64,000 nt of DNA, taken from NCBI GenBank assembly GCA_026709025.1, contig JAPOTT010000010.1:20658-84657 (forward strand). The letters run 5' to 3'. This DNA is from a bacterium. GTDB lineage: Bacteria; Actinomycetota; Acidimicrobiia; Acidimicrobiales; Bin134. Every line of letters starts with the position of its first letter. Position 1 is the stretch's first letter. The notes under the pieces are model-generated. The model did no database searches and was not told where the DNA came from. It worked only from the letters and a program-made list of their open reading frames with translations. A program made the translations under genes and the position numbers. Shown piece by piece: positions 2,004 through 20,891 of this stretch.

Positions 2004-2585
2004 CTAGATAGTCTTTGTGCCGTCCACCCCGAGGGCTATGGCCAGCACCACAGCTGCGCCTCCTAGCAATCTAGCCAATACGGCAAGCAAAGGAGTTGGC
2101 ACCGAGCGCAGCCACAGCAAAGTTGCGGTGGCACCGGCTGCCAGAGCCACACCCGCCAGGGTACGCCACACTCCGTCGTGGGCGGCTGTGGCTAACACCG
2201 TTGCCACCAACTGTGGTGCCAACAACCCGGTTAGGGCGATGAGGGCAACCTGAATCCCGGCGCGAGGTTCGTCTGTAACTGCTTTGGCGGGCCAGAGCAT
2301 CCAGCGCAGGCCCGCTACAGCTACGGGCAACGCTGTGGCTAGGCGCCAGGTTCCAGTGGTTACCGACAAGCCTTCCAATATAGGATCGGCCAGCGCTGCG
2401 ATAAGCCACAACATAGCCACACCTATAGTGGTAGCCAGCACAACCCGAGGTCGCCAGTGATCCCAATTAGATGGCCGCCATGTGAGGGATAGGGCTATTG
2501 CCGCAGGGTTAGCTGCCACCAACACCAGTGCCATTGTTGGCCCTAAGCCGTTCATGTACATGCTCTCATGGTTTGTTGCCTCCAA
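2004..2585 (-). CDS. polytopic integral membrane protein, possibly MarC/UPF0056-like
   Basis: 193-aa ORF that is almost entirely hydrophobic (about 6 TM segments). 'VLVAANPAAIALSL' recalls the N-terminal NP motif of MarC. It overlaps the upstream gene by 20 nt. Confidence 0.4.
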   Translation of the reverse strand: MEATNHESMYMNGLGPTMALVLVAANPAAIALSLTWRPSNWDHWRPRVVLATTIGVAMLWLIAALADPILEGLSVTTGTWRLATALPVAVAGLRWMLWPAKAVTDEPRAGIQVALIALTGLLAPQLVATVLATAAHDGVWRTLAGVALAAGATATLLWLRSVPTPLLAVLARLLGGAAVVLAIALGVDGTKTI

Positions 2586-3882
2586 GGTTGAATTCGAAGT
2601 CGGCCATCAACAGCGCAGAGACGGCGTGCTGTTGATCGTCCACTCTGGTTTGTTGATGGTAGTACCACGCGCCATCTGAAGCTTGGGCTTCAATGAGCCG
2701 CGCAGCACCGCATCGCAAGCGCTGCGTGATAGCGCTCTGGTGCTCACCGAGACGGGGTTCATTGGCCCACAACCATTCCAGCGCGCCTAAGCCCTCCAAA
2801 ATTGTGCCGTAGCCTCCACCCCGAGGCATGGGCAGGTGGGTAGCTTTAGCCAACCCTTCTCGTTGTGAATCCCAGCGGATCATCTGACTGAACCTGCCTG
2901 CCAAACTCTGGGCATAATCCAGATGGTGCTGCGCCAGCCCCCATTCCACCATCTCCGCTAAGCCATAAGCTGCCCACTGATCGGGCCAGGGTGGGGGCCA
3001 CAGTTCCTCTAGGCTGTCGCGTTGGGTGGCCAGGTAGTCCATAATGGCCCAAGTGGGTTCGTCCCAGCCTTCTTCTGGAAAAGCCTCATGCAACAGAGCT
3101 AGCCCCCAAGCTGCCTCACCGGTAGCAAAGCGGGATCTGATTTCTGGCACCACAGCATTGGTGTGGGGATCCCAGAAGTTAGCCATGCCGCCGTCGGGCA
3201 ATTGTTGGCCCACCAAAAACCGCCCTAATGCTCGCATCTCGGGGTCGTAAGCGGTGTCTTTGGTTGCGATGCGACGATGAGCCAGCGACACCAAAGTAAG
3301 CGCCGCTGTGCCGGTTTTGGCTGGGCCAGAGGGCGAAAGCGCGGGTGCGAGGCCGCCGTTGTAGGTGGGAAGCCCGCGCTCTAGGAGGTAGGTAATGCCT
3401 TTGTCGGCTGCCTGTAGCACCTCAGGTTGGCTGTGACGTTGGCTGTTACGTTGACTGTTGCGTTGGCCGTTGGGTGGTTGGGTTTGCTGAGCGCTGTGAG
3501 CAATCGCAAGCTGATATAGCGCCATTGTGGCACCAGCGTGGCGCACCAAGTTGTAGCCCGGGCGTGGCCCACCGATGCGCTGATCGTAGTGATACAGGTA
3601 CCTGCCAGCTGCACTTTGGTTGTTGACGATCCAGTTGCTGGCCGCTTCAATCCCAGCCTGCCCATCTCCCGGAGAGTATTCGGGGCAAACCTCCGGCGCA
3701 GCTAGGGTTACCCGCAGCACTCCCACAACAACCACCCACACCACTAACCAACCAACCAGCCGCCTGTTGGCTGAAGATTTGAACACTCTTAAACCCGCGC
3801 CCGCGCCAACCCAAGTTTTTGTTGCCCAAGCCACGATTTTTGCCGCTGGCTTGGGAGCAACCTCTTTCTGCCCAGAGTTCAT
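2566..3882 (-). CDS. N-terminally anchored extracytoplasmic protein with alpha/alpha-toroid-like repeats (prenyltransferase/terpene-cyclase-like or six-hairpin fold); function unknown
   Basis: 438-aa ORF with a TM segment 'LVGWLVVWVVVVGVL'. Aromatic/Gly-rich repeat motifs follow (GRYLYHYD, DGGMANFWDP, DGAWYYHQ, TGEAAWGLALL). It contains the QRNSQRNSQRHSQ repeat. Confidence 0.35.
   Translation of the reverse strand: MNSGQKEVAPKPAAKIVAWATKTWVGAGAGLRVFKSSANRRLVGWLVVWVVVVGVLRVTLAAPEVCPEYSPGDGQAGIEAASNWIVNNQSAAGRYLYHYDQRIGGPRPGYNLVRHAGATMALYQLAIAHSAQQTQPPNGQRNSQRNSQRHSQPEVLQAADKGITYLLERGLPTYNGGLAPALSPSGPAKTGTAALTLVSLAHRRIATKDTAYDPEMRALGRFLVGQQLPDGGMANFWDPHTNAVVPEIRSRFATGEAAWGLALLHEAFPEEGWDEPTWAIMDYLATQRDSLEELWPPPWPDQWAAYGLAEMVEWGLAQHHLDYAQSLAGRFSQMIRWDSQREGLAKATHLPMPRGGGYGTILEGLGALEWLWANEPRLGEHQSAITQRLRCGAARLIEAQASDGAWYYHQQTRVDDQQHAVSALLMADFEFNLGGNKP
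3426..3473. repeat. imperfect 12-nt tandem repeat x4 (in-frame, encodes QRNSQRNSQRHSQ on the minus strand)
   Basis: gttggctgtgac / gttggctgttac / gttgactgttgc / gttggccgttgg read directly. Confidence 0.85.
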
Positions 3883-3892
3883 GGCGTGAAGC

Positions 3893-5050
3893 TCACCTGA
3901 AGCGCCAGAAGCGGGAGAACAAGAAGGTGGCAGGCAGGCGGCTGAACACGAAGCTGCGAGCTGCGGAGCCTTCTAGTTGGGTGTTGTTGCGGTCTGTTAC
4001 GCACCATGATGATCCTGGCACAACGGTGATGTTGAAACGGGCTGTCCAGTCCAACCATTTCACCCAGCGATGAGGGGTGATGAGGTTGCGGTCTCGGGTA
4101 GATGGGGTGACCCAGATTACAAGAGCACCAATGGCGATAGCACTAAACACCTCCACTTGAGCACTTATCTCGATACCCAGATGGAAGGCTACTGCCACCC
4201 ATACAGCAAACAAGCGAGTGCGGCGAAACCATAGCCCGCAGGCAATGAACAGCTCCGTGGCGACAGCCATCGGTGAGAGTACCCAGTGGAAGGTTCGTGA
4301 GGTGAGCACCTCCAAGATAGGGTTGCCCAGAGTTTCCCCTAGCACGCTCATAGCATCGTCTTGGTAACGCAGGGTTCGATCATGCAGAACTCGCCCGCTT
4401 ACCCAGTCGGGGTCGATCAGCTTGGAAAAACCTGAGGCAAAGGAGATGGCTGCTGCCTCAAAGCGAAGCAACCAGATGGGCCATACGAATCCTTGATCGT
4501 TTGGGTCTGGCCTCACAGCGCCCAGATCCACAGCGCCTAGCCCCACAGCGCCCAGACCCACAGCGCCTAGCCCCAAAGCGCCCTGGTGTAGACGATCTGC
4601 GCTCCGTTGGTTGTGGCGACGGCGCAAGCGTAGCGCATCCACAGAAAGCACCTTGGCGTTGTTGCTGAGTGCTACGCCAGCCAACAAGATAATTAAGAAG
4701 GCTCTGTTATGCCGGAAGTGGGTTTCAGACAAAAAGAAGTTGTAAGCCACCACTGTTAGCGTTACCCAAGTTGCAGGCCGAGCCCACAGCCCCACAGTCA
4801 TCAAAACCGCGCAAGCCACTCCCACCCATAAAATCGCCACATACAACCCGGCGGGCACGTTGGGCACCCACGGCCACCACTTTTGTTGGAAAACGTCCAG
4901 ATAGGTGGTTCCAGCTAGGGCATCTTGGAGGAAAGGGCGCAGGTGCCAGATAGCCGCCGGGCCCAACACGATGCGTAAAATTGCCATAGAACGCAAGCTG
5001 GCTGGCTGATCAAAGATCGTATCTAGCCACTTCGCAGGGGTGGCCAGCAC
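3893..5050 (-). CDS. HTTM domain (vitamin K-dependent gamma-carboxylase-like) integral membrane protein
   Basis: 385 aa. The N-terminal 'ASLRSMAILRIVLGPAAIWHLRPFL' is the typical HTTM opening helix, and multiple TM segments follow. The GTG start overlaps the upstream TAG stop by 1 nt (TAGTG). Confidence 0.7.
   Translation of the reverse strand: MLATPAKWLDTIFDQPASLRSMAILRIVLGPAAIWHLRPFLQDALAGTTYLDVFQQKWWPWVPNVPAGLYVAILWVGVACAVLMTVGLWARPATWVTLTVVAYNFFLSETHFRHNRAFLIILLAGVALSNNAKVLSVDALRLRRRHNQRSADRLHQGALGLGAVGLGAVGLGAVDLGAVRPDPNDQGFVWPIWLLRFEAAAISFASGFSKLIDPDWVSGRVLHDRTLRYQDDAMSVLGETLGNPILEVLTSRTFHWVLSPMAVATELFIACGLWFRRTRLFAVWVAVAFHLGIEISAQVEVFSAIAIGALVIWVTPSTRDRNLITPHRWVKWLDWTARFNITVVPGSSWCVTDRNNTQLEGSAARSFVFSRLPATFLFSRFWRFR
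4514..4588. repeat. imperfect 15-nt tandem repeat x5 (in-frame, encodes GALGLGAVGLGAVGLGAVDLGAV on the minus strand)
   Basis: cacagcgcccagatc / cacagcgcctagccc / cacagcgcccagacc / cacagcgcctagccc / caaagcgccctggtg read directly. Confidence 0.85.
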
Positions 5051-5601
5051 TAGTTGGCCCTGCTTTGGGTGTGAGGTGGATCAGCAGATGGCAGGGTTCG
5101 GGGGTTGCTGCGCAGTACCTTTATGTATGGGCCGCGGGCGTTGCGGTAGTAGGTGACGGTGGCTTCAAGGTAGCGGGTTCGGGTGTCACCGGGGGTGTTG
5201 TCGGCTATCCAATTTAGGGCGTTTTCTAGGTAGTCCAGCACCGCATCTACTCCTGAGAAGGCATGGCGCTGGTGCCACGGGCCTTGTAATGCACGCCAGC
5301 CCACCAAGTCATCCCAGCGGTAGCCCTCCCAATGTCCGTTTGGCGCCTCAATTCGCTGTCCGTTGTTTAGCACCCGCTCTAGGGTGAGCGCGTAGGTGCT
5401 GGATTCGTTGAAGGGTTGAAACGCAAAGTAGTTGTGCGGGTCTCGGTAGCCGTTGATCACCAGCGCAACTTGGGTAATCACCACAACGCTAGCTAGCAGC
5501 CTCACCCCCCTGCGCCGCCATGCAGGGCGGCGACGCACCTCCAGCGGGGTGTTGGTGAGGTTGGATTCTTGTGGGCTAGCTGCTGTGGTGGTTGGTTTCA
5601 C
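5050..5601 (-). CDS. N-terminally anchored hypothetical protein coupled to the HTTM gene
   Basis: 183-aa ORF with an Arg-rich N-terminus, one TM segment ('LLASVVVITQVALVI') and a Trp/Tyr-rich soluble domain. It overlaps the HTTM start by 1 nt. Confidence 0.5.
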   Translation of the reverse strand: MKPTTTAASPQESNLTNTPLEVRRRPAWRRRGVRLLASVVVITQVALVINGYRDPHNYFAFQPFNESSTYALTLERVLNNGQRIEAPNGHWEGYRWDDLVGWRALQGPWHQRHAFSGVDAVLDYLENALNWIADNTPGDTRTRYLEATVTYYRNARGPYIKVLRSNPRTLPSADPPHTQSRAN

Positions 5602-5640
5602 CGAACATGCACACAGAGATCCAGCACATCCACACAGGCA

Positions 5641-6354
5641 TTAGCTGTTGTTTTCGAGTCTGCGCCTGTAGGACTCCAGGTTGGGGGGTAGGCGGTCGCG
5701 CTTTAGCTCTGAGAAGTTGTCGTAAGCGGTGAGCCAGCGCACATGCTGCCATAACTCCACAGCCTCTTTGGTGCTAGCAGGTGGGTTGCTGATTACCGGG
5801 CCAAACAAGGCTGGCCTTGTTTGGCTAGCTGCGCTATCTGAGGAGGGGCCATCGGCTGTGCTGGCTGCGTCGTTTGCGCCATCTGTGGGGTTGGCTATAT
5901 CTAGGCGAATGGTGGGCACCCCAAAGCTACGGGTTTCGTCGCACAACACAGTGTGTTCGGATTTGAGTGCTTCCCAGGTTGCAGGGTTTGCCAACGCATC
6001 GTCCACCAAGCTGCTAGAAAAACCAGCATCGGTAGCTGCAGCCTTGAGGGTGTTGATGTCATTCACAGATTCCACTAGGTCAAACGCCCGATGTCCGACA
6101 GCCTCATAGTAGGCACCTATCCCGGCATTGCCACCCACGTTGCGTGCTTCGATAGCAGTGCGAAGCGAATGCACTCCAGCACCCTTGCTTGGATCAAACT
6201 CAGATAGGGGTTTATCCCAGTTGACGATGGCCAACGAGAACAGTCCCCAAGTGGTGTGTACCTCTCCAGCGGCTTCTATCTGACGAACCCAACGGGATGT
6301 CTGCCAGCACCATGGTCAAAGAGGATCAAAGTAGAAGGTGATAGGTTCGCCCAT
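5641..6354 (-). CDS. DsbA-like thiol oxidoreductase of the Rv2466c (CPWC) type, interrupted by an in-frame TGA at the first redox Cys position (candidate selenoprotein, UPWC)
   Basis: ATG at 6354 gives [29 protein letters not shown]..., continuous in frame with the track ORF 5641..6234. Compare mycobacterial Rv2466c '[20 protein letters not shown]' and its C-terminal 'FFGPV...ELKRTR' with 'LFGPV...ELKRDR' here. Confidence 0.6.
6280..6307 (-). promoter_or_regulatory. candidate bacterial SECIS-like hairpin (hand-folded)
   Basis: The mRNA from +9 to +36 after UGA is CUGGCAGACAUCCCGUUGGGUUCGUCAG. CUGGC pairs with GUCAG, GAC with GUU, and CC with GG. The apical loop is CGUU, placing G-U about 23-24 nt after UGA. 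No folding program was used. Confidence 0.3.
6316..6318 (-). other. in-frame TGA codon replacing the N-terminal Cys of the CxxC motif (candidate Sec codon)
   Basis: Plus-strand 'tca' at 6316-6318 lies 12 codons after the ATG at 6354, in the same frame as the downstream 197-aa ORF. Confidence 0.55.
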
Positions 6355-6494
6355 GCGGGGATTATCTTAGTGCGGATGCTCTAGTGCAAGTACCCCAAAC
6401 GAACAATTCAGGTGTGCTTACAGATGCTAAGAGCCGTGTGGAGAGTTTATTTTGTTTGTGCAACTCATGGCTACACCGGGTATGGTTGTGGCTT

Positions 6495-6731
6495 ATGTCC
6501 AGTGTCTGTCAGGTGACCGGTCGTCGCCCATCTTTTGGCAATAATGTGTCCCACTCCCATCGCAAAACCAGACGTCGGTGGAACCCCAACGTACACAAGC
6601 ATCGCTTCTGGTTGCCTTCAGAAAAGCGCTGGGTGGTGCTCAACGTGTCTACTAAGGGCCTGAAAACAATCAACAAACATGGCATTGAGAAGGTGGTTGC
6701 TCAGATGCGTCGCCGGGGAGAGAAGGTGTGA
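6495..6731 (+). CDS. rpmB: 50S ribosomal protein L28
   Basis: '[63 protein letters not shown]' is collinear with E. coli L28. The track ORF start (6384) is an upstream extension. Confidence 0.9.
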
Positions 6732-6734
6732 GGC

Positions 6735-6896
6735 ATGGCTAGTGATAAACGCCCTATTGTGAAGCTGAAGTCCACCGCTGGCACCGGTTACACCTATGTG
6801 ACCACCAAGAATCGCATCAACGACCGTGAGCGCATTGAGTTGAAGAAGTTTGATCCAGTGGTTCGCAAGCATGTGATCTTTAAGGAGGAGCGGTAG
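6735..6896 (+). CDS. rpmG: 50S ribosomal protein L33
   Basis: Not in the ORF track (53 aa). Hand translation gives [53 protein letters not shown], a classic L33. It starts 3 nt after the rpmB stop. Confidence 0.9.
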
Positions 6897-6922
6897 TCGC
6901 CGATGTTGGCGAGAGCCGGGAG

Positions 6923-7675
6923 ATGCTCACTGCCGCTTTGTTGGCAGACGATCCCGCACCGCCCTTATGGCACCTAGTCGACTCTGGTCTCGCCCACGAT
7001 ATTGTTCCCGAACTGCCTGCGCTTCGCCTAGAACAAGACCCAATTCACCGTCACAAAGACGTACTAGCTCACACCATTGCGGTGGTTGCCAAAACCCGTG
7101 TGGACTTGATTTTGCGTTTGGCTACCCTGTTTCACGATGTGGGCAAGCCTAAAACCCGCTCTTACGAAAAGGGTACCGTTACCTTCTATCACCATGAAGC
7201 GGTTGGGGCGCGGATGACAAAAAAGCGGCTCTCAGCATTGGCCTATTCGCCAGCTGTGGTGCAAGACGTAACAGAGTTGGTGCGATTGTCGGGGCGTTTC
7301 AAGGGGTATGCAGATGGTTGGAGTGATACTGCTGTGCGTCGTTACGCCCGTGAGGCTGGTCACCTGTTGGGCTATCTCAACGAGTTGGTGCGCGCAGATT
7401 GCACTACGCGCAATCGCCAAAAAGCTGCCGATCTGCAACATCACGTGGATCACTTGGAAGCTCGCATCGCCCAGCTAGCTGAAGCCGACCGCCGAGCCGC
7501 AGAGCGCCCTTTGATCAACGGTAACGAGGTGATGGCCCGCTACAAGCTAGCTCCTGGGCCCGAGGTGGGTGCAGCACTGAAGTTTTTGTTGGCTTTGAAG
7601 CGAGCCGAACCTGACCTGGATCGCGCAGAAACTGAGGCGCGCTTAGATAAATGGTGGGCAGAATTGAAGCAATGA
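6923..7675 (+). CDS. stand-alone HD-domain protein resembling the C-terminal half of CCA-adding enzyme/poly(A) polymerase family
   Basis: 'HRHKDVLAHTIAVV', 'LATLFHDVGKPKT' and 'FYHHEAVGARMTKKRL' are the HD motifs of actinobacterial CCA-adding enzymes. No nucleotidyltransferase head is encoded upstream, since rpmG ends at 6896. Confidence 0.6.
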   Translation: MLTAALLADDPAPPLWHLVDSGLAHDIVPELPALRLEQDPIHRHKDVLAHTIAVVAKTRVDLILRLATLFHDVGKPKTRSYEKGTVTFYHHEAVGARMTKKRLSALAYSPAVVQDVTELVRLSGRFKGYADGWSDTAVRRYAREAGHLLGYLNELVRADCTTRNRQKAADLQHHVDHLEARIAQLAEADRRAAERPLINGNEVMARYKLAPGPEVGAALKFLLALKRAEPDLDRAETEARLDKWWAELKQ

Positions 7676-7714
7676 CATAAGACAGGGGAACCTACCCGCT
7701 AGCGTGAGACTTGA

Positions 7715-9601
7715 ATGTCTAAGTGCGTTAAACAGCGTGTTCAGCAAGGCCGATTGCACCCAAAACGTGGCGGTTTTGTATGTCTGATTGGCGTTGCATT
7801 TGTTGTTGTGTTTGGGCTTTTGGCCTCGGGTTGTAGCACAAATGGTGCTGCTGTAGATACTCTGGATTCTGTTGTAACGTCTTCTGCTGCAACTAGCACC
7901 CCTGAAGGATTGGCTAATGGTTCGCCTGAGTACGGCAACGGGGAGTTCCAAGCTGCTGACAGCGCCACGTCGCAAGCCGTCCGTAGCAACCTAGAAGTAC
8001 TTGACCCTTCGCCCGCTCCTGATGTGTCTGCATCACCGCCTAGTGTGTCTGTTCTCTCAACTGCTACCCCGCTGCTACCAGCACGTGACTGTACGTGGGA
8101 GTTGCCTGATTTCTTGGAGTTGACTTACGAATCGCTGGCAGATGCAAGCATGCAGATGTCTCAAGCTGGCTTTGAGTGCGCCGATGAGGTAGGACTGGCA
8201 TTGGCAGCAGATGATGCAGCCATTGCTGCTTTGCGGGAGCTTGGCATTGCTGGTCCGCTGTTGTTGGTGGATGAGTTGATGGATTCCACCTTTAGGGCAG
8301 AAGTTGAGCGCTTAGCCCCACAGCGTATTTTGGTATCGGGTTTTGCTGCACCAGAGGTTCGAAAGGCTTTGGGCGGCATGGATTTAGACGTGCTCTCAGT
8401 GCAACGTACGGAAACGTATCCACCAGCCACAGCAGAGCCAGCCCCCACCCAGGAAGCTCAAGCAAGCTCGCAAGAAACAGACGGCTCACAAGCAGCAGAA
8501 ACAGATGGGGTAACAAACCTGCAGGCAGCCCCAGAAGACTCAGCCGCGCCAGCGGAGCAACAAGGGCCCGAACAAGCACCTGTTGATGCTCAGCCTGTTT
8601 GGATAATCGGCACCCCAGAGCTAGAGCCAATTCTTGAGGCTTCGTTTCGGCACATGGGTGAGGCTTTGATGATTTCAGCTAGCGATTTTCGTGCCGCATC
8701 ATCAACAGAACAAGCAGCGTTGCTGTCGGCCAGCGAACTAAAGGTGATTTGGACTGCCCACAGCCCTCTAGCCTGGCCTATTGGGGCCATGCGCGAGGGC
8801 CTTGAGATACCCGGGGGCGGTTTGTTTATGTTCGACGGTGGTGTGGACAGGCGCATGGTTGCTATGTATGGTCACCCCTCGGGGCCAGCGTTAGGGGTGT
8901 TGGGCGAACAAGGTATTGAAGCGGGCATTGAACGCCTCAACACGGTTACACAGGGCTATGAGGCCGATGGTTCTGTGGTGTTGCCCACCTTTGAGATCAT
9001 TGCTACTGTGGCTTCAGCCCACGCTGGGGCAGACGGCGATTACTCCGCCGAAACCCCGCTAGATGATTTGCGGCCCTGGGTGGCTGCAGCTGCCGAAAAC
9101 GATGTTTATGTGGTGTTGGATTTGCAGCCCGGGCGCAACGACTACCTTTCGCAAGCCAAGATATACGAAGAGTTTCTGCGCCTGCCCCATGTTGGCTTGG
9201 CCCTAGATCCTGAATGGCGGCTCAAGCCCGATCAGCGTCACCTCCGTCAGATTGGTACGGTGGATGCCGCAGAGATCAACACGGTTGTGGAATGGTTGGC
9301 CGATATCGTGCGCCAAGAGAACCTGCCGCAAAAGTTGTTGATCCTGCATCAGTTCAGCACACACATGATCACCAACCCCCACCTCATCCAGATTCCACCA
9401 GAGTTGGCCGTGCTAATCCACATGGACGGTCAGGGATACATAAACGAAAAATACGGTACATGGAACAGGTTGACCAGCAAACCTAGCGCTAGCCGGTTCC
9501 ACTGGGGCTGGAAGAACTTCTACGATGAAGACAGCCCAACCCCAACCCCAGCCCAAGTTCTAGCCCTAGAACCCAAAGCCGTTTACGTCTCCTACCAGTA
9601 A
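7715..9601 (+). CDS. secreted lipoprotein, function unknown
   Basis: 628-aa ORF with a signal peptide and lipobox 'LLASGC'. A Ser/Pro/Ala-rich linker and a conserved-looking C-terminal domain ('VVLDLQPGRNDY...GLALDPEWRL...LHQF') follow. Confidence 0.6.
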   Translation: MSKCVKQRVQQGRLHPKRGGFVCLIGVAFVVVFGLLASGCSTNGAAVDTLDSVVTSSAATSTPEGLANGSPEYGNGEFQAADSATSQAVRSNLEVLDPSPAPDVSASPPSVSVLSTATPLLPARDCTWELPDFLELTYESLADASMQMSQAGFECADEVGLALAADDAAIAALRELGIAGPLLLVDELMDSTFRAEVERLAPQRILVSGFAAPEVRKALGGMDLDVLSVQRTETYPPATAEPAPTQEAQASSQETDGSQAAETDGVTNLQAAPEDSAAPAEQQGPEQAPVDAQPVWIIGTPELEPILEASFRHMGEALMISASDFRAASSTEQAALLSASELKVIWTAHSPLAWPIGAMREGLEIPGGGLFMFDGGVDRRMVAMYGHPSGPALGVLGEQGIEAGIERLNTVTQGYEADGSVVLPTFEIIATVASAHAGADGDYSAETPLDDLRPWVAAAAENDVYVVLDLQPGRNDYLSQAKIYEEFLRLPHVGLALDPEWRLKPDQRHLRQIGTVDAAEINTVVEWLADIVRQENLPQKLLILHQFSTHMITNPHLIQIPPELAVLIHMDGQGYINEKYGTWNRLTSKPSASRFHWGWKNFYDEDSPTPTPAQVLALEPKAVYVSYQ

Positions 9602-9713
9602 CGCAGGTGCTGGTGCTAGGCAGGGTGGGGGTGAGCGCTGGTGGGGTTAGTTGGGTGGGTTGTGGCTTGTACTAGAGTGCTACCACAAGCTGAAACCCAC
9701 TAGGGGGGACACG

Positions 9714-10175
9714 ATGGAAGTGGCAGTTACAATCAACGGGCAGACCTACAGCCATGATGTAGAGCCCCGCACTTTGTTGGTGCATTACATCCGCGACACG
9801 GCAGGGCTTACGGGCACCAACATTGGCTGTGACACCTCTTCTTGTGGGGCCTGCACCGTTCACATCAACGGTGAGTCTGTAAAGTCTTGCACGATGCTGG
9901 CTGTGCAGGCCGACGGGCAGACCCTAACCACCATCGAGGGTTTAGCTGATGGTGATGTGCTGCACCCCATGCAGGAGTCCTTTCGTCAGTGCCACGCTTT
10001 GCAATGCGGCTACTGCACTCCGGGCATGGTTATGGCAGCAATCTCTTTGCTAGATGAGAACCCCTCGCCTACTGAGCGGGAGGTTCGCATCGGGCTAGAA
10101 GGCAACCTTTGTCGCTGCACTGGTTATCACAACATAGTTAAGGCTGTTTTGCACTGCGCGGAGGCATCGGCATGA
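9714..10175 (+). CDS. (2Fe-2S)-binding small subunit of a xanthine dehydrogenase/CO dehydrogenase-family molybdoenzyme (CoxS-like)
   Basis: '[22 protein letters not shown]' and '[10 protein letters not shown]...NLCRCTGY' are the two Fe-S cysteine clusters. ATG 9714 is preceded by GGGGGGA; the track start at 9651 is an extension. Confidence 0.9.
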
Positions 10176-10996
10176 TTCCATTAGGTTTTGATTACATTCG
10201 CGCCGAATCAACTGACGAAGCACTTGCGGCTCTAGCCGATCACGGCGATGAGGCAAAGCTGCTAGCGGGGGGCCATTCGCTGTTGCCCTTGATGAAGTTG
10301 CGTCTTGCTACCCCCGCAGTGCTAGTAGACATTGGTCGCCTAGATAATCTCAGTTACATAACTGATGCTGGCGATCACCTAGCAATCGGGGCGCTTACGC
10401 GTCATAGGGCTGTAGAAACCAGTGATTTGGTGCGTTCTTTTGCCGGGTTGCTGGCCGAGGCTACCAGTCACGTGGGTGATCCACAGGTGCGTCACATCGG
10501 CACTATCGGCGGTTCAATAGCTCATGGCGATCCAGCATCAGACCTGCCTTCGGTGCTTGTTGCCATGCGCGCCACGTTGGTTGCCCAAGGCCCCTCTGGG
10601 AAGCGTGAAATAGCGGTGGACGACTTCTTCACCGGCTTTTTGGAGACATCATTAGCAGATAATGAGATGCTCACCGAGATACGGGTGCCTAAGATGCCTG
10701 ATGCAACCTGGGGGTTTCAGAAGTTCAACCGCCGGGCTCAAGATTGGGCAATAGTGGGCGTGGCTGCGGTTGTAAACAACGCAAGCTCTGGTGTTGGCTT
10801 GGTGAACATGGACAGCCTGCCGGTTCGTGCCGCTGGCGTGGAGGCGGCTCTTGATGCAGGAGCGTCGGCTAGTGATGCAGCCGCAGTTGCCGCTGATGGC
10901 ACCAACCCGCCGTCTGATCTGAATGCTGGCCCTGAGTATCGTGAGCATCTAGCTCGTGTGCTAACTCGCCGAGCGCTTGAAGCCGCTGGTCGCTAA
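10172..10996 (+). CDS. FAD-binding medium subunit (CoxM-like)
   Basis: '[21 protein letters not shown]' and '[15 protein letters not shown]' are FAD-binding motifs of molybdopterin dehydrogenases. It overlaps the S gene by 4 nt. Confidence 0.88.
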
Positions 10997-11025
10997 ATCT
11001 GTGTGGAAATTTGGCTTGTTAAGGT

Positions 11026-11952
11026 ATGGGATCAGTCCGTAGCACCGAGCCCACGTCTGTATCCGAGGTGGCCGAAGGGTTAGGCGAGGCAGACTACCTA
11101 GCCGATGAGGGCTTGGCCACGGCTGTGTTCTTGGCGATGAAGCTGGCGCGTCCGTTGTTGCTTGAAGGCGAACCCGGAGTGGGCAAGACCGAAACAGCTC
11201 GGGCACTAGCAACTTGGACTGGTGCCGAGTTGATTCGCTTGCAGTGCTATGAGGGCATCGACGTAGCCCAAGCAGTGTATGAGTGGGATTACTCCCGTCA
11301 ACTATTGCACTTGCGGACAGCAGAAGCCACCGGTGCTGCAACCCTACAGACTGACGGTGCATTAGAAGACGAGATGTATTCTGAGCGTTTTTTGATCAAG
11401 CGCCCCTTGTTGGAGGCCATCTCTGCTACACAAGGCCCGCCGCCGGTGTTGTTGATAGATGAAGTAGACCGCGCAGATGACGAGTTTGAGGCATTCTTGT
11501 TGGAGATACTGTCGGATTATGCGATAACGGTGCCCGAGGTGGGCCGTTTTGTGGCTACCACCCCGCCTCGGGTGATCATCACCTCTAATCGCACCCGCGA
11601 TGTTCACGATGCTCTCAAGCGGCGTTGCTTGTATCACTGGGTTGAGCATCCTGATTTTGAGCGGGAGGTGTCTATCATTTGTCGGCGCGCACCGCAGGTT
11701 AGCGAGCGCCTAGCCACACAGGTGGCAGCTGCGGTGGCAGCATTTCGGGAGTTGGGCTTGTACAAGCCTCCCGGTGTGGCCGAGAGCATCGATTGGAGCT
11801 TGGCGCTAGGTCGGCTTGGAGCAGCTGAACTGAACCCTGAAATAACTCAGGCCAGCTTGGGGGCGGTGCTCAAGTACCGAGAAGATCAGCAGCGGGTGGC
11901 CGACCATGGCATCGACATGCTCATCCAACAAGCCACGGCTCGGGCAGTTTAA
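11026..11952 (+). CDS. coxD: MoxR-type AAA+ ATPase (CoxD-like maturation factor)
   Basis: Walker A 'LLEGEPGVGKTETARALA' and Walker B 'VLLIDEVDRA'. The 308-aa length and its position between cox subunit genes and a vWA gene fit CoxD. Confidence 0.8.
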   Translation: MGSVRSTEPTSVSEVAEGLGEADYLADEGLATAVFLAMKLARPLLLEGEPGVGKTETARALATWTGAELIRLQCYEGIDVAQAVYEWDYSRQLLHLRTAEATGAATLQTDGALEDEMYSERFLIKRPLLEAISATQGPPPVLLIDEVDRADDEFEAFLLEILSDYAITVPEVGRFVATTPPRVIITSNRTRDVHDALKRRCLYHWVEHPDFEREVSIICRRAPQVSERLATQVAAAVAAFRELGLYKPPGVAESIDWSLALGRLGAAELNPEITQASLGAVLKYREDQQRVADHGIDMLIQQATARAV

Positions 11953-11998
11953 CTACATGGCTCGGGTTAACTACATGGCCCGGGCAGTGTGAACAACA

Positions 11999-13111
11999 GT
12001 GCAAGCCGATGAGCTAGCCGTTGGCTTTGTGAACTGCCTACGGGGCGCAGGCGTAGATGTAGCGGTGGGGTCATCTGTGAATTATTGGCAGGCACTCGGT
12101 GCTTTGGGTGTGGCCGAGCGCAGCGCAATGTATTGGGCAGGCCGGGCAACTCTTATAACCAACCCCGAAGATATCCACCTCTACGACAAGGTTTTTGCGG
12201 CTTATTACGAACATGAGGGCCTCGTAGCTACTCCGATTTTGGAGGTAGTGAAACCCCTAGTTTTGGCGGTAGATGATGACGCTGCCGATGATGCAGATCA
12301 AGATAGTCACACCCAAGAGATGCAAACAGATCCATCTGTTACTTTGCGGTGGAGTCGTCAAGAAGTGCTGCGAGATAAGGACTTCAGCGAGTACAGCAAA
12401 ACTGAGCTAGACGAGGCGTACCGTCTTATGGCATCTATGGCCCAGATTGGGGGTACTCGCAAGTCTCGGCGGCTTAAACCTACCCACCGCAGCATCGGCC
12501 ACCCCGATTTGCGGCGTACTGTGAGGGCAGCTCTTCGAACGGGGGGCGAGCCGGTGCGCCGCAGCTTCACGCAACCTGGCCAGCGTTTGCGCCGTGCTGT
12601 GTTGCTGTTGGATATTTCAGGGTCGATGGAGCCGTATGCAAGGGCACTTTTGCGTTTCGTTCACGCTGCGGTAGTTGGTCGCCGCAAGGTTGAGGTGTTC
12701 ACCATCGCCACCCGCCTCACCCGCATAACTAGAGACCTAACTTGGCGAGACCCAGATAGGGCGCTGAGAGCAGCCACCACAAGCGTGAGCGACTGGTCTG
12801 GAGGTACTCGATTAGGTGAAACGTTGGCTGAGTTTAATGAGCTTTGGGGGATTCGGGGCATGGCTCGCGGGGCCACTGTTGTTGTGCTAAGCGATGGCTG
12901 GGATCGCGGCAGCCCCGATGTGATGTGCGAGCAGATGGCTCGATTACACAGGGTGACGCATAAACTCATTTGGGTGAACCCGCTCAAGGCAACTCCCGGC
13001 TATCAGCCGCTAGCACAAGGCATGGCTGCAGCACTGCCTTATGTAGATGATTTCATCGAAGGCCATTCGTTGCGCTCGCTAGAGCGCTTAGCTGAGGTAC
13101 TAGCCCAATGA
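11999..13111 (+). CDS. coxE: vWA domain protein of the CoxE family
   Basis: 370 aa with a C-terminal vWA domain carrying MIDAS 'LLLDISGSM' and '..VVVLSDGWDRG'. It follows the MoxR gene, as in the coxD-coxE order. Confidence 0.78.
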   Translation: MQADELAVGFVNCLRGAGVDVAVGSSVNYWQALGALGVAERSAMYWAGRATLITNPEDIHLYDKVFAAYYEHEGLVATPILEVVKPLVLAVDDDAADDADQDSHTQEMQTDPSVTLRWSRQEVLRDKDFSEYSKTELDEAYRLMASMAQIGGTRKSRRLKPTHRSIGHPDLRRTVRAALRTGGEPVRRSFTQPGQRLRRAVLLLDISGSMEPYARALLRFVHAAVVGRRKVEVFTIATRLTRITRDLTWRDPDRALRAATTSVSDWSGGTRLGETLAEFNELWGIRGMARGATVVVLSDGWDRGSPDVMCEQMARLHRVTHKLIWVNPLKATPGYQPLAQGMAAALPYVDDFIEGHSLRSLERLAEVLAQ

Positions 13112-13422
13112 AGGAGATTCTGGCCGACCTAGACACCTGGCGAGCTCAGGGCCGCAAGGTCGCCATAGCTAGAGTGGTGAACGTGGAGGGTTCTGGCCCG
13201 CGCGATCCGGGCGCGGCCATGGCGGTGAGCGATAGCGGCGATGTAATTGGTTCGGTTTCGGGAGGGTGTGTGGAGGGCGCTGTAGTAACTGAGGCTTTAG
13301 CTATCCTTGAGACAGGTGAGCGCAAGATGGTGAGCTTCGGCTACAGCGATGATGAGGCTTTCGCTGTGGGGCTCACCTGCGGGGGCACCATCCACCTGTT
13401 TATAGAGCCGTTGGACTGGTAG
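13108..13422 (+). CDS. XdhC/CoxI-family N-terminal-domain protein (molybdoenzyme maturation)
   Basis: 'VAIARVVNVEGSGPRDPGAAMAV...GSVSGGCVEGAV' is the XdhC_CoxI motif. It overlaps coxE by 4 nt. Confidence 0.75.
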   Translation: MKEILADLDTWRAQGRKVAIARVVNVEGSGPRDPGAAMAVSDSGDVIGSVSGGCVEGAVVTEALAILETGERKMVSFGYSDDEAFAVGLTCGGTIHLFIEPLDW

Positions 13423-13423
13423 G

Positions 13424-14233
13424 GTGTCGGAGCTTTACGAGCAACTGCGAGATGCCATCACCGATGAACGACCGGTGGTGCTGGCCACCGTAATTGAAGG
13501 CCCGAACGCTGGTGCCAAGCTGGTGTTAGACCCTGAGTGCGCTGATGGTTTTGTAAGCGTGGGTACTTTGGGAAACCCTGGGCTAGATCGGGTGGTGAGC
13601 CGAGATAGCGTAGGCGAGCTAGCCGCCGGGCGTAGCGGGGTGCGCCACTATGGGCCGGAGGGTCAAGCCAATGAGCAACACGTCTCGGTGTTTGTGGAGT
13701 CTTTTGCACCGCCACCCATCATGTTGGTGTTTGGGGCGGTAGATTTCACCGCAGCTCTGGCCCGTGCAGCCAAGCTGTTGGGTTTCAAGGTGGTAGTGGC
13801 CGATGCGCGTTCTATGTTTGCCACCGTCAAGCGTTTCCCAATGGCTGATCAGGTGATGGTGGCTTGGCCGGATGAGGTTTTCGATGTTTACGCCGAGCGC
13901 CTCGGCCATCATGATGCTGTGTGCATTCTTACTCACGATCCAAAGTTTGATGTTCCAGCGGTGCAACGTGCAGTAGCCACCGAGGTGGGCTACATCGGGG
14001 TGATGGGAAGCAGGCGCACCCATGCCACACGTTTGAAGCGATTGGCCGAAGTGGGTGTGCCCCAGCAAGGGATTGACCGCCTCATGGCACCCATCGGGCT
14101 AGACATCGGTTCGCGCACGCCCGAGGAGACAGCGGTGTCGGTGTGCGCGGAGATCATTGCCAACCGTACAGGGCATGCCGCTCCGTCGCTGCGAGATAGC
14201 GATGGCCCTATCCATCGCCAAGCCCCAACCTAA
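13424..14233 (+). CDS. XdhC family protein (XdhC_CoxI-like N-domain plus Rossmann C-domain); occupies the coxF/coxI position
   Basis: 'VVLATVIEGPNAGAKLVL' plus the Rossmann-like 'IMLVFGAVDFTAALARAAKLLGFKVVVADAR' and 'GYIGVMGSRRT'. GTG lies 1 nt after the preceding stop. Confidence 0.75.
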   Translation: MSELYEQLRDAITDERPVVLATVIEGPNAGAKLVLDPECADGFVSVGTLGNPGLDRVVSRDSVGELAAGRSGVRHYGPEGQANEQHVSVFVESFAPPPIMLVFGAVDFTAALARAAKLLGFKVVVADARSMFATVKRFPMADQVMVAWPDEVFDVYAERLGHHDAVCILTHDPKFDVPAVQRAVATEVGYIGVMGSRRTHATRLKRLAEVGVPQQGIDRLMAPIGLDIGSRTPEETAVSVCAEIIANRTGHAAPSLRDSDGPIHRQAPT

Positions 14234-15636
14234 TGAAGCTTCGTGCAACTCCAACAGCTTACATAGCACGTATCACTGGACTTGTTGTGGCTGTGTTGGT
14301 TGTGACTGTGTTGGTTATGACTGTTGTGGCTGGCTGTGGCAGCAATATCAACGGCGATGTGGCAACCGACCCCACAGAGGTGTCGCCCACAAGCCCTGCT
14401 TCCAATCTAGATGCAACCCAGGGTTTGGCCACCTCAACCCAAACGGTTCTTGATGTTGATGATCCTGTAGGCACCCAAGCTGCCACCACACCGGCCACAG
14501 CGCCACCGGATCTCACAAGCGGCTCTGCCACAGTACCCCCGCAGGCGTTGATCACCGATGGTGCTGGCCCTACGGGCCCGCTGGCTGAGGTTACTCGCGG
14601 CTGGGGCACCGATTTTTCTAGACGGATCATCGAGCTAGATGAGCTGTTGATCGGTATTCAGGCCATTCCCATCCGCGATCGTATCCCTCCTATTGATAAC
14701 CCGCAGTTCGTGCCGATAGCAGAGGTAGGTTGGGCTGACCAAGAGCCCGGATTGGTGTTGGTGGATGGCACCGAAGCTCGCTTTTACCCCCTAGCTATGC
14801 TTATCGTGCATGAGATTGTCAACGATGAGATCAACGGTCGGCCCGTAACCGTTACGTACTGCCCATTGTGTAACAGCGCTTTGGTGTTCAACCCCGAAGT
14901 AGAAGGGCAAACTCTGCGGTTTGGCACTTCAGGGTTGCTGCGTAACAGCGATTTAGTGATGTGGGACGATGCCACAGAGTCGTTATGGCAACAAATTGGC
15001 GGGCAGGGCCTAGTGGGGGCTTATGCGGGTTATCGTCTAGAGGTGATCGGGTCGGCAATAGTTTCTTATGGGGATTTCAGCGATAGCTACCCCCAAGGCA
15101 CGGTGCTTACCGCGCCGGGACGACCCGCAAGCACTTACGGCAACAACCCGTATGTGCTTTACTCTTCGCGCGATGTTCCGTATCAAGGATTTTTTGATGC
15201 CTCACAGCTTGATGAGCGTTACCCGGCTTTGGAACGTACCGTGGGGGTAACCATTAACGGCATCGCCAAGGCTTACCCCTTCACTACAGTGCAAGCCGCG
15301 CAAGCCGTCAACGACACTGTAGCCGATGTGCCGGTGGTGGTTTGGTGGTCGGCTGGCACTGCTGATGCCCTAGATGCTGCCCAAACAGCGCAAGGTGCCG
15401 ATATAGGTGCTGCGCTGGCCTTTGAGCGTCGCTTAGCCGATGGAACCGTTTTGGGGTTTTCTCCATCTGGCGATGCCCAGTTCAGCGATGATGTAACTGG
15501 GTCGGTGTGGAACCTGTTGGGTCATGCTATTTCTGGTGAGCTGTCGGGCAGTCGGCTCACTCCGGTGGTACACACCAATGAGTTTTGGTTTGCTTGGTCG
15601 GCATTTAACCCACAAGGCGAGGTGTATACCCCGTGA
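14233..15636 (+). CDS. DUF3179-domain lipoprotein
   Basis: Lipobox 'VVAGC', a Thr/Pro/Ala linker, then 'VTVTYCPLCNSALVF...RFGTSGLLRNSDLVMWDDATESLWQQIGG', which matches the DUF3179 signature as I recall it. Confidence 0.7.
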   Translation: MKLRATPTAYIARITGLVVAVLVVTVLVMTVVAGCGSNINGDVATDPTEVSPTSPASNLDATQGLATSTQTVLDVDDPVGTQAATTPATAPPDLTSGSATVPPQALITDGAGPTGPLAEVTRGWGTDFSRRIIELDELLIGIQAIPIRDRIPPIDNPQFVPIAEVGWADQEPGLVLVDGTEARFYPLAMLIVHEIVNDEINGRPVTVTYCPLCNSALVFNPEVEGQTLRFGTSGLLRNSDLVMWDDATESLWQQIGGQGLVGAYAGYRLEVIGSAIVSYGDFSDSYPQGTVLTAPGRPASTYGNNPYVLYSSRDVPYQGFFDASQLDERYPALERTVGVTINGIAKAYPFTTVQAAQAVNDTVADVPVVVWWSAGTADALDAAQTAQGADIGAALAFERRLADGTVLGFSPSGDAQFSDDVTGSVWNLLGHAISGELSGSRLTPVVHTNEFWFAWSAFNPQGEVYTP

Positions 15637-16190: not shown

Positions 16191-16252
16191 CCGGCAACTG
16201 GCCCGGTATCGTTTCTGTTGACACCTGAGAGCACCTGAGAGGAACAGCCAAT

Positions 16253-20504: not shown

Positions 20505-20891
20505 ATGAGCGGAGATCCCTGGGGCGATACGGAAAACGATCTTTTTGCCGGTGGCGCAATCTCAGATAATCCCCTAGCGGGTGCGCGCACTGCACCGCAG
20601 CGCTGGTGGCAGCAGCGGCAGGGGATTTTGGCTCTTGCAGCCAGCTTGGTCTCGGTGGTGGCACTGGTGGTGGTACTGGCTGGTATAGACGGCTACGTCA
20701 TGGTTGGTGTTGCAGCGGGGGGCTATTTGCTGGCGGTTCTGGCTGATGTTGAGGCACGTAGGGTGCGCTACAACAACAAGAACTATGTAAGGCCGAAGTT
20801 CATGGGCATACCGTTGTTGCGGGTGGTTACGTTCGCTTTGGCGGTATGGGTGGCATGGCTGGTGGCTTCGTCTTTGGCAGGTACCACATGA
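20505..20891 (+). CDS. small 3-TM membrane protein with N-terminal DPWGD motif; first gene of the tubulin-like/vWA operon
   Basis: 128 aa opening 'MSGDPWGDTENDLF', followed by three hydrophobic segments. The TGA stop overlaps ATG 20888 of the next gene (ATGA). Confidence 0.6.
   Translation: MSGDPWGDTENDLFAGGAISDNPLAGARTAPQRWWQQRQGILALAASLVSVVALVVVLAGIDGYVMVGVAAGGYLLAVLADVEARRVRYNNKNYVRPKFMGIPLLRVVTFALAVWVAWLVASSLAGTT

What the first reader, a model, noticed from the sequence alone, without database searches (positions are those of the whole stretch)
5641..6354. In-frame TGA exactly at the first cysteine of a CPWC redox motif: candidate selenocysteine-containing DsbA-like (Rv2466c-type) oxidoreductase
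The ORF track reports only a 197-aa fragment (5641-6234) that lacks any redox motif. Extending the frame upstream gives ATG(6354)[14 protein letters not shown](6318-6316)[14 protein letters not shown]..., fully in frame. The mycobacterial homologue Rv2466c reads [16 protein letters not shown] at this position, so the stop codon sits precisely where the nucleophilic Cys belongs. That is the hallmark of Sec/Cys pairs in thioredoxin-fold selenoproteins. A GC-rich imperfect hairpin can be hand-drawn 9-36 nt downstream, with G-U in the apical loop about 23 nt after UGA, roughly where bacterial SECIS elements sit. Selenoprotein use in Actinobacteria is patchy. If real, this implies sel genes elsewhere in the genome and would be missed by standard annotation.
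Basis: partly seen in the sequence, partly recalled or inferred. Interest (0 to 1): 0.8.

Follow-up and report, generated by a model that had tools for sequence, protein, structure and literature searches.

The report
Selenocysteine-type DsbA-like reductase gene
The "stop" codon inside this redox-enzyme gene is kept at the catalytic cysteine position in more than 50 related sponge-associated bacterial species. It is therefore almost certainly read as selenocysteine, and gene callers have truncated the protein in every genome I checked.

Summary
On the minus strand, ATG 6354-6352, 11 more codons, TGA 6318-6316 and 224 further codons up to TAA 5643-5641 form one frame. It encodes an Rv2466c-like DsbA-family protein. 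The TGA aligns with the first Cys of the CPWC motif.

It is not an error or a pseudogene.
- Three other assemblies of the same species carry the same TGA.
- 35 of 36 species-level "Ca. Poriferisocius" genomes carry it, as do 17 genomes of a second sponge-symbiont clade and three further metagenomic lineages.
- More distant Acidimicrobiia have TGC or TGT at this position.
- The 10 codons upstream are under strong purifying selection (pN/pS 0.02).
- TGA is an ordinary stop elsewhere in the window.

Its small G-containing loop sits where published DsbA-like selenoprotein mRNAs place theirs. It is no more stable than controls, but neither are the published examples. Nucleotides specific to the Sec forms support an RNA-level signal.

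The weak point is the machinery. I could not show selA, selB or selC in these genomes. One published table for a member genome lists SelD only.

Verdict: a real, unannotated selenoprotein and a new subfamily and lineage member of the known UxxC DsbA-like selenoproteins.

The parts
5641..6354 (-). Full coding sequence of the Rv2466c-like DsbA-family protein: 12 codons, UGA (Sec), 224 codons, TAA stop.
   Evidence: Pfam PF22234 and PF01323; PDB Rv2466c relatives.
6352..6354 (-). Start codon ATG.
   Evidence: ATG is at the same position in all 35 clade-A sequences.
6319..6351 (-). N-terminal strand [11 protein letters not shown], upstream of the UGA; gene callers discard it.
   Evidence: In clade A, pS is 0.515 and pN 0.010 (pN/pS 0.02) over the 10 codons before the UGA. 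One search gives the per-codon counts.
6316..6318 (-). In-frame TGA: the proposed selenocysteine codon, at the position of the first (nucleophilic, by homology to Rv2466c) Cys of CPWC.
   Evidence: TGA is kept in 71 related loci, and 87 others have TGC/TGT.
6307..6318 (-). U-P-W-C redox motif (TGA CCA TGG TGC).
6280..6307 (-). Candidate SECIS hairpin, positions 12-39 counted from the U of UGA. The apical loop CGUU lies at 6291-6294.
   Evidence: MFE fold at -9.0 kcal/mol. The helix is paired in 98% of clade-A cells, and its 6-pair core in 93% of clade B against 68% of Cys forms. It is not more stable than controls.
6319..6321 (-). Codon -1 (CTT): a rare codon that puts a U directly before the UGA.
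   Evidence: The base before the TGA is T in 52 of 55 distinct Sec-type sequences but in only 9 of 71 Cys-type ones. CTT makes up 11-12% of Leu codons.
5812..5901 (-). Low-complexity insertion (about residues 152-181, [14 protein letters not shown]...QTRP) specific to this species; most sister species have 6 residues here, and P0002/L037 a shorter insertion.
2004..5601 (-). Four downstream same-strand genes: 183 aa, HTTM-domain 385 aa, 438 aa and 193 aa, all with predicted membrane segments. They are neighbours in clade A only.
   Evidence: Pfam HTTM. Found within about 0.7-3.5 kb of the gene in 31-34 of 35 clade-A loci and in none of 17 clade-B loci.

Best explanation
The gene encodes a cytoplasmic thioredoxin-fold, DsbA-like reductase of the Rv2466c subfamily. 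In it, the N-terminal active-site Cys of CPWC (the nucleophile, by homology to Rv2466c) is replaced by selenocysteine (UPWC).

Proposed mechanism. Translation starts at ATG 6354. At UGA 6318-6316, Sec-tRNA(Sec) is delivered by SelB, which is recruited by a small hairpin in the coding sequence 9-36 nt downstream. Translation then continues to TAA 5643. The enzyme cycles between a selenolate and a selenenylsulfide formed with Cys16.

Shown here: the in-frame TGA at the Cys position; its long evolutionary maintenance; purifying selection on both flanks; Sec-specific nucleotide conservation around the codon; and normal use of TGA as a stop elsewhere in the window.

Inferred: that the inserted residue is Sec, that the hairpin is the SECIS, that sel genes exist in this genome, and the enzyme's substrate.
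For: 1. The TGA aligns with the first Cys of CPWC in Rv2466c.
2. It is not an error: three further independent assemblies carry the identical TGA.
3. Conservation across genomes. TGA is present in 35 of 36 clade-A genomes (66-71% identity), in 17 clade-B genomes (48-50%), and in L088, L129 and L153/154. More distant Acidimicrobiia, Nitriliruptoria and Euzebyaceae have TGC/TGT.
4. In a neighbour-joining tree, all sampled TGA forms (L129 and L153/154 were not included) fall in one group. One nested Cys form (L037) fits a reversal.
5. The upstream 10 codons have pN/pS 0.02 in clade A and 0.13 in clade B, so they are translated in this frame.
6. Gene callers choose different internal starts in different species, so there is no conserved alternative start.
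7. TGA ends 18 of 45 long ORFs in the window, so there is no genome-wide reassignment.
8. Among 13,188 TGA-spanning peptides from the window and 80 loci, this is the largest conserved cluster. It is the only large one whose sequence looks like real protein rather than an off-frame or ordinary-stop artefact.
9. RNA-level signal. Codons +7 to +12 are nearly invariant in 35 species even though they use rare CGT and GTT codons. A U precedes the UGA in 52/55 Sec forms against 9/71 Cys forms. Position 24 is C in 52/55 against 15/71. The hairpin core is paired in 93-98% of Sec forms against 68% of Cys forms. The loop position matches the folds of published DsbA-like selenoprotein mRNAs.
10. Sec machinery is common in the order. 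A full selC-selA-selB-selD island lies next to the Cys-type homologue in L074. Other Acidimicrobiia carry selD-selA-selB in the same arrangement, with tRNA-Sec confirmed in L173. SelA and SelB are enriched in sponge symbionts (PMC5649159).
Against: - No selA, selB, selD or tRNA-Sec was found in the 64-kb window or in any of the roughly 70 Sec-type loci.
- Supplementary Table S4 of PMC5649159 lists SelD = 1 but SelA = 0 and SelB = 0 for bin134. Bin134 is the MAG that supplies locus L012, which has the TGA form. That MAG is 90% complete, and selA and selB are adjacent in every sel locus I read (L074, L172, L173, L175-L180), so a single missing contig could remove both.
- Two SelB searches, one representative search and 30 cluster look-ups found no SelB on a known Poriferisocius chromosome. 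This test has low power.
- The hairpin is not more stable than dinucleotide shuffles or synonymous recodings.
- Its detailed pairing differs between clades, and a competing helix that includes the UGA is equally well kept.
- The Cys revertant L037 still folds similarly.
Confidence: 0.85

Rival explanations
1. The UGA is recoded, but not to selenocysteine. A tRNA reading UGA might insert Cys, as described for tRNA-Sec-like tRNA(Cys) working with SelB. Alternatively, near-cognate readthrough in the leaky U-UGA-C context might insert Trp or Cys, and the lineage may lack SelA/SelB.
For: The bin134 COG table lists SelD only, with no SelA or SelB. No SelB could be traced to these genomes. UGA followed by C is invariant and a U before it is strongly conserved; from my own background knowledge, UGA-C is a leaky stop context. 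The hairpin is not demonstrably a SECIS.
Against: - The MAG is 90% complete, and other bins in the same table show similar gaps, for example SelA and SelB without SelD.
- SelD in an actinobacterium points to Sec use, because the selenouridine trait is reported absent from sequenced Actinobacteria (Peng et al. 2016, as cited in bioRxiv 10.64898/2026.04.03.716425).
- If Cys were inserted, a UGA would have no advantage over UGC. A single-base reversal is easy, yet it is seen only once among 36 clade-A species.
- Trp at the catalytic position would destroy the redox motif.
Confidence: 0.07
2. Translation stops at the UGA, and the functional product is an N-terminally truncated protein started downstream (as annotated, 197 aa). 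The first 12 codons would then be a separate small upstream ORF.
For: This is what every gene caller produced.
Against: - The truncated product lacks the first strand, the redox motif and part of helix 1 of the thioredoxin fold.
- The called starts differ between species (TTG, GTG and ATG at four different positions), so no start is conserved.
- The 27 codons between the UGA and the window's called start are conserved in frame; pN is 0 for codons +1 to +6.
- The reading frame is continuous across the UGA in all 55 distinct sequences.
Confidence: 0.04
3. It is a point-mutated pseudogene or a sequencing or assembly error.
For: A single TGC-to-TGA change would produce it. The closest relative, L037, has TGC.
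Against: - Four independent assemblies agree.
- The TGA is kept in 71 loci spanning down to 38% identity, with no other disruptions apart from one extra in-frame TAG in the single contig L004, and under strong purifying selection.
Confidence: 0.01
4. TGA is reassigned genome-wide as a sense codon (as in Mycoplasma, or in the SR1 and Gracilibacteria candidate lineages).
For: None beyond the in-frame TGA itself.
Against: TGA terminates 18 of 45 ORFs of at least 200 codons in the window. In the conserved-TGA scan, only this gene stood out as a genuine in-frame TGA.
Confidence: 0.01

Closest known systems
DsbA-like selenoproteins (form 1, UxxC) from the Sargasso Sea survey (Zhang, Fomenko & Gladyshev 2005, PMC1088965), listed in the 2026 review PMC13188914
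   Same: - Short N-terminal strand followed directly by U-P-W-C.
- No signal peptide.
- Matches Pfam PF01323.
- The UGA is followed by CC.
- Small hairpin whose apical loop lies about 21-25 nt after the UGA, with comparable low stability of -6.7 to -9.3 kcal/mol.
   Different: - Similarity to the window protein is limited to 33% identity over 39 residues.
- The Sargasso proteins match PF01323 but not PF22234.
- The original paper files them under COG2761 'DsbA-like'.
- The host lineage here is sponge-associated Acidimicrobiales.
- No paper in the searched library links Rv2466c with selenocysteine.
Rv2466c of Mycobacterium tuberculosis (PDB 4NXI, 4ZIL, 5XUR), named a mycothiol-dependent nitroreductase in the Pfam PF22234 description
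   Same: Same Pfam family (78.8 bits). The active-site segment [16 protein letters not shown] is nearly identical, and the alignment covers both domains.
   Different: The first Cys of the motif is encoded by UGA here. The thiol cofactor and substrate in Acidimicrobiales are unknown. The window protein carries a low-complexity insertion of about 24 residues.
Bacterial SelB/SECIS recoding as in E. coli fdhF (own background knowledge, plus the background section of PMC1088965)
   Same: In-frame UGA with a stem-loop immediately downstream inside the coding region, and a small apical loop containing G (G-U here) about 23 nt after the UGA.
   Different: No covariation proof. The pairing register differs between the two sponge clades, and a competing helix exists. 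SelB was not shown in these genomes.

Membership tests
Rv2466c-like DsbA family (Pfam PF22234) | Sequence match above Pfam's gathering score. | tested here: met
   78.8 bits against a cut-off of 27, covering residues 12-219 and all 180 profile positions.
Rv2466c-like DsbA family (Pfam PF22234) | CPWC active-site motif after the first strand. | tested here: met
   The motif reads U-P-W-C. The printed alignment (to 4ZIL) places the TGA at the first Cys.
Rv2466c-like DsbA family (Pfam PF22234) | Mycothiol-dependent reductase activity. | not testable with these tools
   This needs biochemistry. Whether these bacteria make mycothiol was not examined.
Bacterial selenoprotein | In-frame UGA aligned with Cys in homologues (a Sec/Cys pair). 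| tested here: met
   71 loci have TGA and 87 have TGC/TGT at the same column.
Bacterial selenoprotein | Coding conservation on both sides of the UGA. | tested here: met
   In clade A, pN/pS is 0.02 upstream and pN is 0 for codons +1 to +6 downstream.
Bacterial selenoprotein | SECIS stem-loop immediately downstream, with a small apical loop containing G. | tested here: inconclusive
   A hairpin with loop CGUU lies at the expected distance. It is better paired in Sec forms than in Cys forms. It is not more stable than controls, and an alternative helix fits equally well.
Bacterial selenoprotein | selA, selB, selC and selD present in the same genome. | not testable with these tools
   - They are absent from the window and from all Sec-type loci.
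- The published COG table for bin134 shows SelD only.
- The machinery is common elsewhere in the order.
Bacterial selenoprotein | Selenium shown in the protein. | not testable with these tools
   Needs 75Se labelling or mass spectrometry.
DsbA-like selenoprotein form 1 (Sargasso Sea type) | Close sequence relationship to the published members. | tested here: not met
   Only the N-terminal 39 residues align (33% identity, E 2e-4). The published members lack a PF22234 match. Both groups share the same superfamily and the same motif.

The most novel reading that the evidence does not exclude
The Poriferisocius lineage really lacks SelA and SelB, as the bin134 COG table suggests, yet has kept a UGA at a catalytic Cys codon over deep divergence. 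It would then decode that UGA by a route other than canonical Sec insertion. One possibility is a UGA-reading tRNA charged with Cys or another residue. Another is context-driven readthrough in the conserved U-UGA-C plus hairpin setting.
Probability: 0.06. Interest if true: 0.85.

Novelty: new member of a known kind. Interest (0 to 1): 0.42.

Why it matters
- Annotation: every database gene call I examined for this protein, in the window's species and its relatives, is truncated and lacks its active site. Functional inference for these abundant sponge symbionts therefore misses a redox enzyme and a selenium requirement.
- Scope of selenoproteins: it extends the known UxxC DsbA-like selenoproteins to the Rv2466c (mycoredoxin-like reductase) subfamily.
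- A natural Sec/Cys series: the family offers long-maintained Sec forms, deep Cys outgroups and one recent Sec-to-Cys reversal in the sister species. This is useful for studying why Sec is kept.
- Ecology: it fits the earlier report that SelA and SelB are enriched in sponge symbionts (PMC5649159).

Tried and rejected
1. Rfam at gathering thresholds found only two tRNAs. A bioRxiv preprint (10.64898/2026.04.03.716425) notes that bacterial SECIS elements are poorly represented in Rfam.
2. Thermodynamic tests did not separate the hairpin from chance. The z-score was +1.0 to +1.1 against shuffles. Between 41% and 83% of synonymous recodings folded at least as well.
3. Covariation gave only between-clade changes (G-U to C-G at 15/36; C-G, U-G and U-A at 23/31). 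This is too few events, on related sequences, to prove a structure.
4. The hunt for Sec machinery did not reach these genomes.
   - tblastn with E. coli and L074 SelA, SelB and SelD against about 1.5 Mb of fetched loci hit only L074.
   - ARAGORN on 74 related loci found tRNA-Sec only in L074; a later scan of two SelB loci found a second in L173.
   - SelB searches from L074 and from an Ilumatobacteraceae-type query listed 120 hits each, none on a contig whose length matches a Poriferisocius chromosome.
   - A representative search plus 30 cluster look-ups gave the same result.
   - Four SelB contigs that I fetched gave no link to these lineages: three proved to be other Acidimicrobiia and the fourth (L172) could not be assigned. 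L173 is not the window's genome (tetranucleotide r = 0.57, against 0.93-0.98 within the window).
5. A scan for a second selenoprotein gene, looking for conserved TGA-spanning peptides, found none in the window or loci.
6. I first thought the hairpin had decayed in the Cys revertant L037. It has not: it still folds at -9.0 kcal/mol, so I dropped that argument.
7. A promoter scan of 5500-6500 found nothing.

Full report
**1. What is in the sequence**

On the minus strand an ATG at 6354-6352 opens a frame that reads [12 protein letters not shown]. It then meets TGA at 6318-6316 and continues without any further stop through [14 protein letters not shown]... to TAA at 5643-5641. The mechanical ORF list reports only the part after the TGA, starting at a TTG (5641-6234, 197 aa).

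With Cys written at the TGA, the 237-residue protein matches Pfam PF22234 (Rv2466c-like) at 78.8 bits against a cut-off of 27, and PF01323 (DSBA) at E = 3e-8. The closest solved structures are 4ZIL, 4NXI, 4WKW and 5XUR; the 5XUR chain is named 'thioredoxin-like reductase Rv2466c' (E 9e-21 to 6e-19). The printed alignment, to 4ZIL, sets [17 protein letters not shown] against [17 protein letters not shown]. The TGA therefore sits at the first Cys of the CPWC motif.

**2. Not an error, not a pseudogene**

The gene as annotated (P0001) occurs in several independent assemblies from different sequencing runs. I read three of them: ENA ERZ27276907, Logan SRR10996923 and Logan ERR5002180. All three have the same TGA, with 0-1 mismatch to the window over 780 nt.

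The nearest database proteins (63-68% identity) are all N-terminally truncated gene calls, with one exception. For the three whose contigs I fetched, the DNA upstream reads M-[ST][25 protein letters not shown], followed by the rest of the protein.

A scan of one genome per species gave 80 loci:
- 35 of 36 loci of "Candidatus Poriferisocius" and allied sponge-associated Acidimicrobiales (clade A, 66-71% identity) have TGA at this codon. Only L037 has TGC.
- 17 loci of a second clade that includes "Ca. Spongiisocius" (clade B, 48-50% identity, motif FYFDP[TVI]-U-PWCYQTFRW) also have TGA.
- Every more distant homologue has TGC or TGT. These include Ilumatobacteraceae, other Acidimicrobiales, Egibacteraceae, Euzebyaceae and Nitriliruptorales.

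Metagenome contigs add three further TGA lineages (L088, L129, L153/154), each with an intact frame across the codon, at 38-48% identity. In total there are 71 loci (55 distinct 96-nt regions) with TGA and 87 loci (71 distinct) with TGC/TGT.

A neighbour-joining tree puts all sampled TGA forms in one group (L129 and L153/154 were not included). L037 is nested beside the window's gene. This fits one old Cys-to-Sec change and at least one reversal, although the tree rests on a short protein.

**3. Both sides of the TGA are translated in one frame**

In clade A the ten codons before the TGA show many synonymous differences and almost no amino-acid change:
- TTC/TTT 23:12
- TAC/TAT 18:17
- GAA/GAG 11:24
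- four different Pro codons

This gives pS 0.515 and pN 0.010, a ratio of 0.02. In clade B the ratio is 0.13. Codons +1 to +6 have pN = 0 in clade A.

Gene callers picked different internal starts in different species: a TTG (shown as M) at AIVN, then MRQIE, MSVTWG, MTWG and MDEFDP. No downstream start is conserved.

TGA is an ordinary stop in this genome, ending 18 of 45 ORFs of at least 200 codons in the window. I also compared all 13,188 TGA-spanning peptides from the window and 80 loci. This gene formed the largest conserved cluster (52 partners). It was the only large one whose sequence looks like real protein. The others I read were off-frame shadows of GC-rich genes, or ordinary stops followed by an adjacent gene.

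**4. The RNA signal**

It spans positions 12-39 (window 6307-6280) with loop C25-G26-U27-U28, at -9.0 kcal/mol. It is not more stable than controls:
- dinucleotide shuffles give z = +1.0 to +1.1;
- 41-83% of synonymous recodings drawn from the genome's codon usage fold at least as well.

The same test does not separate the published DsbA-like selenoprotein mRNAs from chance either. Three Sargasso Sea sequences from the supplement of PMC1088965 fold to hairpins at positions 17-35, with loops at 24-28, energies of -6.7 to -9.3 kcal/mol and z between +0.1 and -1.1. Failing the stability test is therefore not evidence against a SECIS. The loop here lies in the same place as theirs. [quoted passage not shown]

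Evidence for selection at the nucleotide level:
- Codons +7 to +12 (GCC CGT TGG GTT CGT CAG) are invariant in 34-35 of 35 clade-A sequences. Yet CGT and GTT make up only 9% and 14% of Arg and Val codons there.
- The variable third positions (columns 6, 12, 21) fall outside the helix, at its terminal pair where C-G and U-G both pair, or in its internal loop.
- The base before the TGA is T in 52 of 55 Sec forms (CTT, ACT, GTT and ATT, all rare codons) but in 9 of 71 Cys forms.
- Column 24, a third codon position, is C in 52/55 Sec forms against 15/71 Cys forms.
- The six core pairs of the hairpin are formed in 98% of clade-A cells, 93% of clade-B cells and 68% of Cys-form cells.

Limits of this evidence:
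- Covariation amounts to a few between-clade changes.
- RNAalifold prefers a different helix (columns 2-9 with 24-33) that includes the UGA itself. It is paired in 96-99% of Sec forms against 60% of Cys forms.
- Clade B also has a register-shifted alternative.
- The Cys revertant L037 still folds similarly.

I conclude that a Sec-specific RNA element exists around positions 2-39, but its exact structure is not settled.

**5. Sec machinery: the unresolved point**

The window has no tRNA-Sec and no SelA, SelB or SelD homologue. Neither do any of the TGA-type loci.

By chance, one Cys-type locus (L074, an Actinomycetota MAG) carries a complete island only 1.4 kb from its Rv2466c-like gene: tRNA-Sec 8511-8604, selA 6880-8151, selB 5144-6883 and selD 4135-5127. 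SelB relatives are abundant in Acidimicrobiales. The contigs I fetched from planktonic members carry selD, selA, selB, a 481-aa gene and UGSC genes in the same arrangement as L074, with tRNA-Sec confirmed in L173. An unrelated preprint reports universal Sec machinery in Actinomarina.

Slaby et al. 2017 (PMC5649159) found SelA and SelB in most sponge-symbiont bins. However, their Table S4 lists SelD = 1, SelA = 0 and SelB = 0 for bin134, the MAG that supplies my locus L012. That MAG is 90% complete. selA and selB are adjacent in every sel locus I read (L074, L172, L173, L175-L180), so one missing contig could remove both. Other bins in the table show similar gaps.

My attempts to find a SelB on a Poriferisocius chromosome failed, but they had little power. 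This remains the decisive open test.

**6. Mechanism proposed**

The protein has no signal peptide, because the motif starts at residue 13. It is homologous across both domains to Rv2466c, which the Pfam family description names a mycothiol-dependent nitroreductase.

I therefore propose a cytoplasmic thiol-disulfide or mixed-disulfide reductase. Sec13 attacks the substrate and Cys16 resolves the intermediate as a selenenylsulfide. Decoding follows the bacterial SelB/SECIS route.

The substrate and the thiol cofactor are unknown. The four downstream membrane-protein genes, including an HTTM-domain protein, are neighbours in clade A only, so they are not tied to the Sec form as such.

**7. Comparison with what is known**

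DsbA-like UxxC selenoproteins have been known since the Sargasso Sea survey and are listed in a 2026 review. Their published sequences share the U-P-W-C start and the hairpin position. Otherwise they align with this protein only over 39 residues (33% identity), and they match PF01323 but not PF22234. No paper in the searched library mentions Rv2466c together with selenocysteine, and the review does not mention Rv2466c, mycothiol or actinobacteria.

This is therefore a new subfamily and lineage member of a known kind of selenoprotein, not a new kind of system.

**8. Verdict**

Confidence that the UGA encodes Sec is about 0.85. The remaining doubt comes from the unverified machinery.

Interest is moderate. 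The biology is expected for thioredoxin-fold proteins. Against that, the gene is mis-annotated in every gene call I examined, it marks selenium use in a dominant sponge-symbiont group, and the published SelD-only profile of one member genome leaves a small chance of something unusual.

Noticed in passing
L074:4135-10654: In a distant Actinomycetota MAG, the Cys-type homologue (10001-10654, +) lies 1.4 kb from a complete Sec island: tRNA-Sec 8511-8604, selA 6880-8151, selB 5144-6883 and selD 4135-5127, all on the minus strand. Planktonic Acidimicrobiia contigs (L173, L175-L180) carry selD, selA, selB, a 481-aa gene and UGSC genes in the same arrangement, with tRNA-Sec confirmed in L173.
   Followed up: partly
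L158:6993-7010; also L159 and L160: Three bog-metagenome contigs carry a Cys-type gene with an in-frame TAG replacing the conserved Gln codon just after the motif (CPWCY-TAG-TSRW). This could be one population's pseudogene or another recoding event; I did not examine it.
   Followed up: no
L004, about 45 nt after its TGA at 457-459: This sponge-metagenome contig has a second in-frame stop (RQI-TAG-GAG), where the near-identical L003 and L005 have GAG. It is probably an assembly error or a decaying copy.
   Followed up: no
window 6319-6321 and the same column in related loci: The codon before the UGA ends in T in 52 of 55 Sec-type sequences, whichever amino acid it encodes (Leu, Thr, Val or Ile). 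All are rare codons in these GC-rich genomes. Only 9 of 71 Cys-type sequences have T there.
   Followed up: partly
PMC5649159 Supplementary Table S4, column bin134 (= locus L012): The published COG counts for this Sva0996-group MAG give SelD 1, SelA 0 and SelB 0, although the MAG carries the TGA form of the gene. The OM1-clade Acidimicrobiia bin76 has all three.
   Followed up: partly
window 19117-19203: ARAGORN calls an 87-nt tRNA-Thr(cgt) here. The Rfam tRNA model does not confirm it, and it lies inside an enoyl-CoA hydratase ORF (19102-19860, minus strand). It is probably a false positive.
   Followed up: no
window 20846-31440: A same-strand run of large genes: 1019 aa with no Pfam match, 1088 aa with an N-terminal tubulin-like PF13809 domain, 898 aa, 239 aa and 249 aa, the last three with no Pfam match. 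Function unknown.
   Followed up: no
window 9651-16960: A cluster of molybdenum-hydroxylase small and medium subunit genes plus accessory genes: Fe-S subunit, FAD subunit, MoxR/MadB-type ATPase, VWA protein, XdhC, DUF3179, MobA-like and CoxG. No large catalytic subunit was recognised next to it. The adjacent 628-aa ORF 7715-9601 has no Pfam or NCBIfam match.
   Followed up: no
window 5812-5901; whole window: The window's protein has a low-complexity insertion of about 24 residues that most sister species lack (P0002/L037 has a shorter one). The window's G+C content is 55%. Its Cys-type sister L037 has 49%, and the other clade-A loci I sampled have 60-70%.
   Followed up: no
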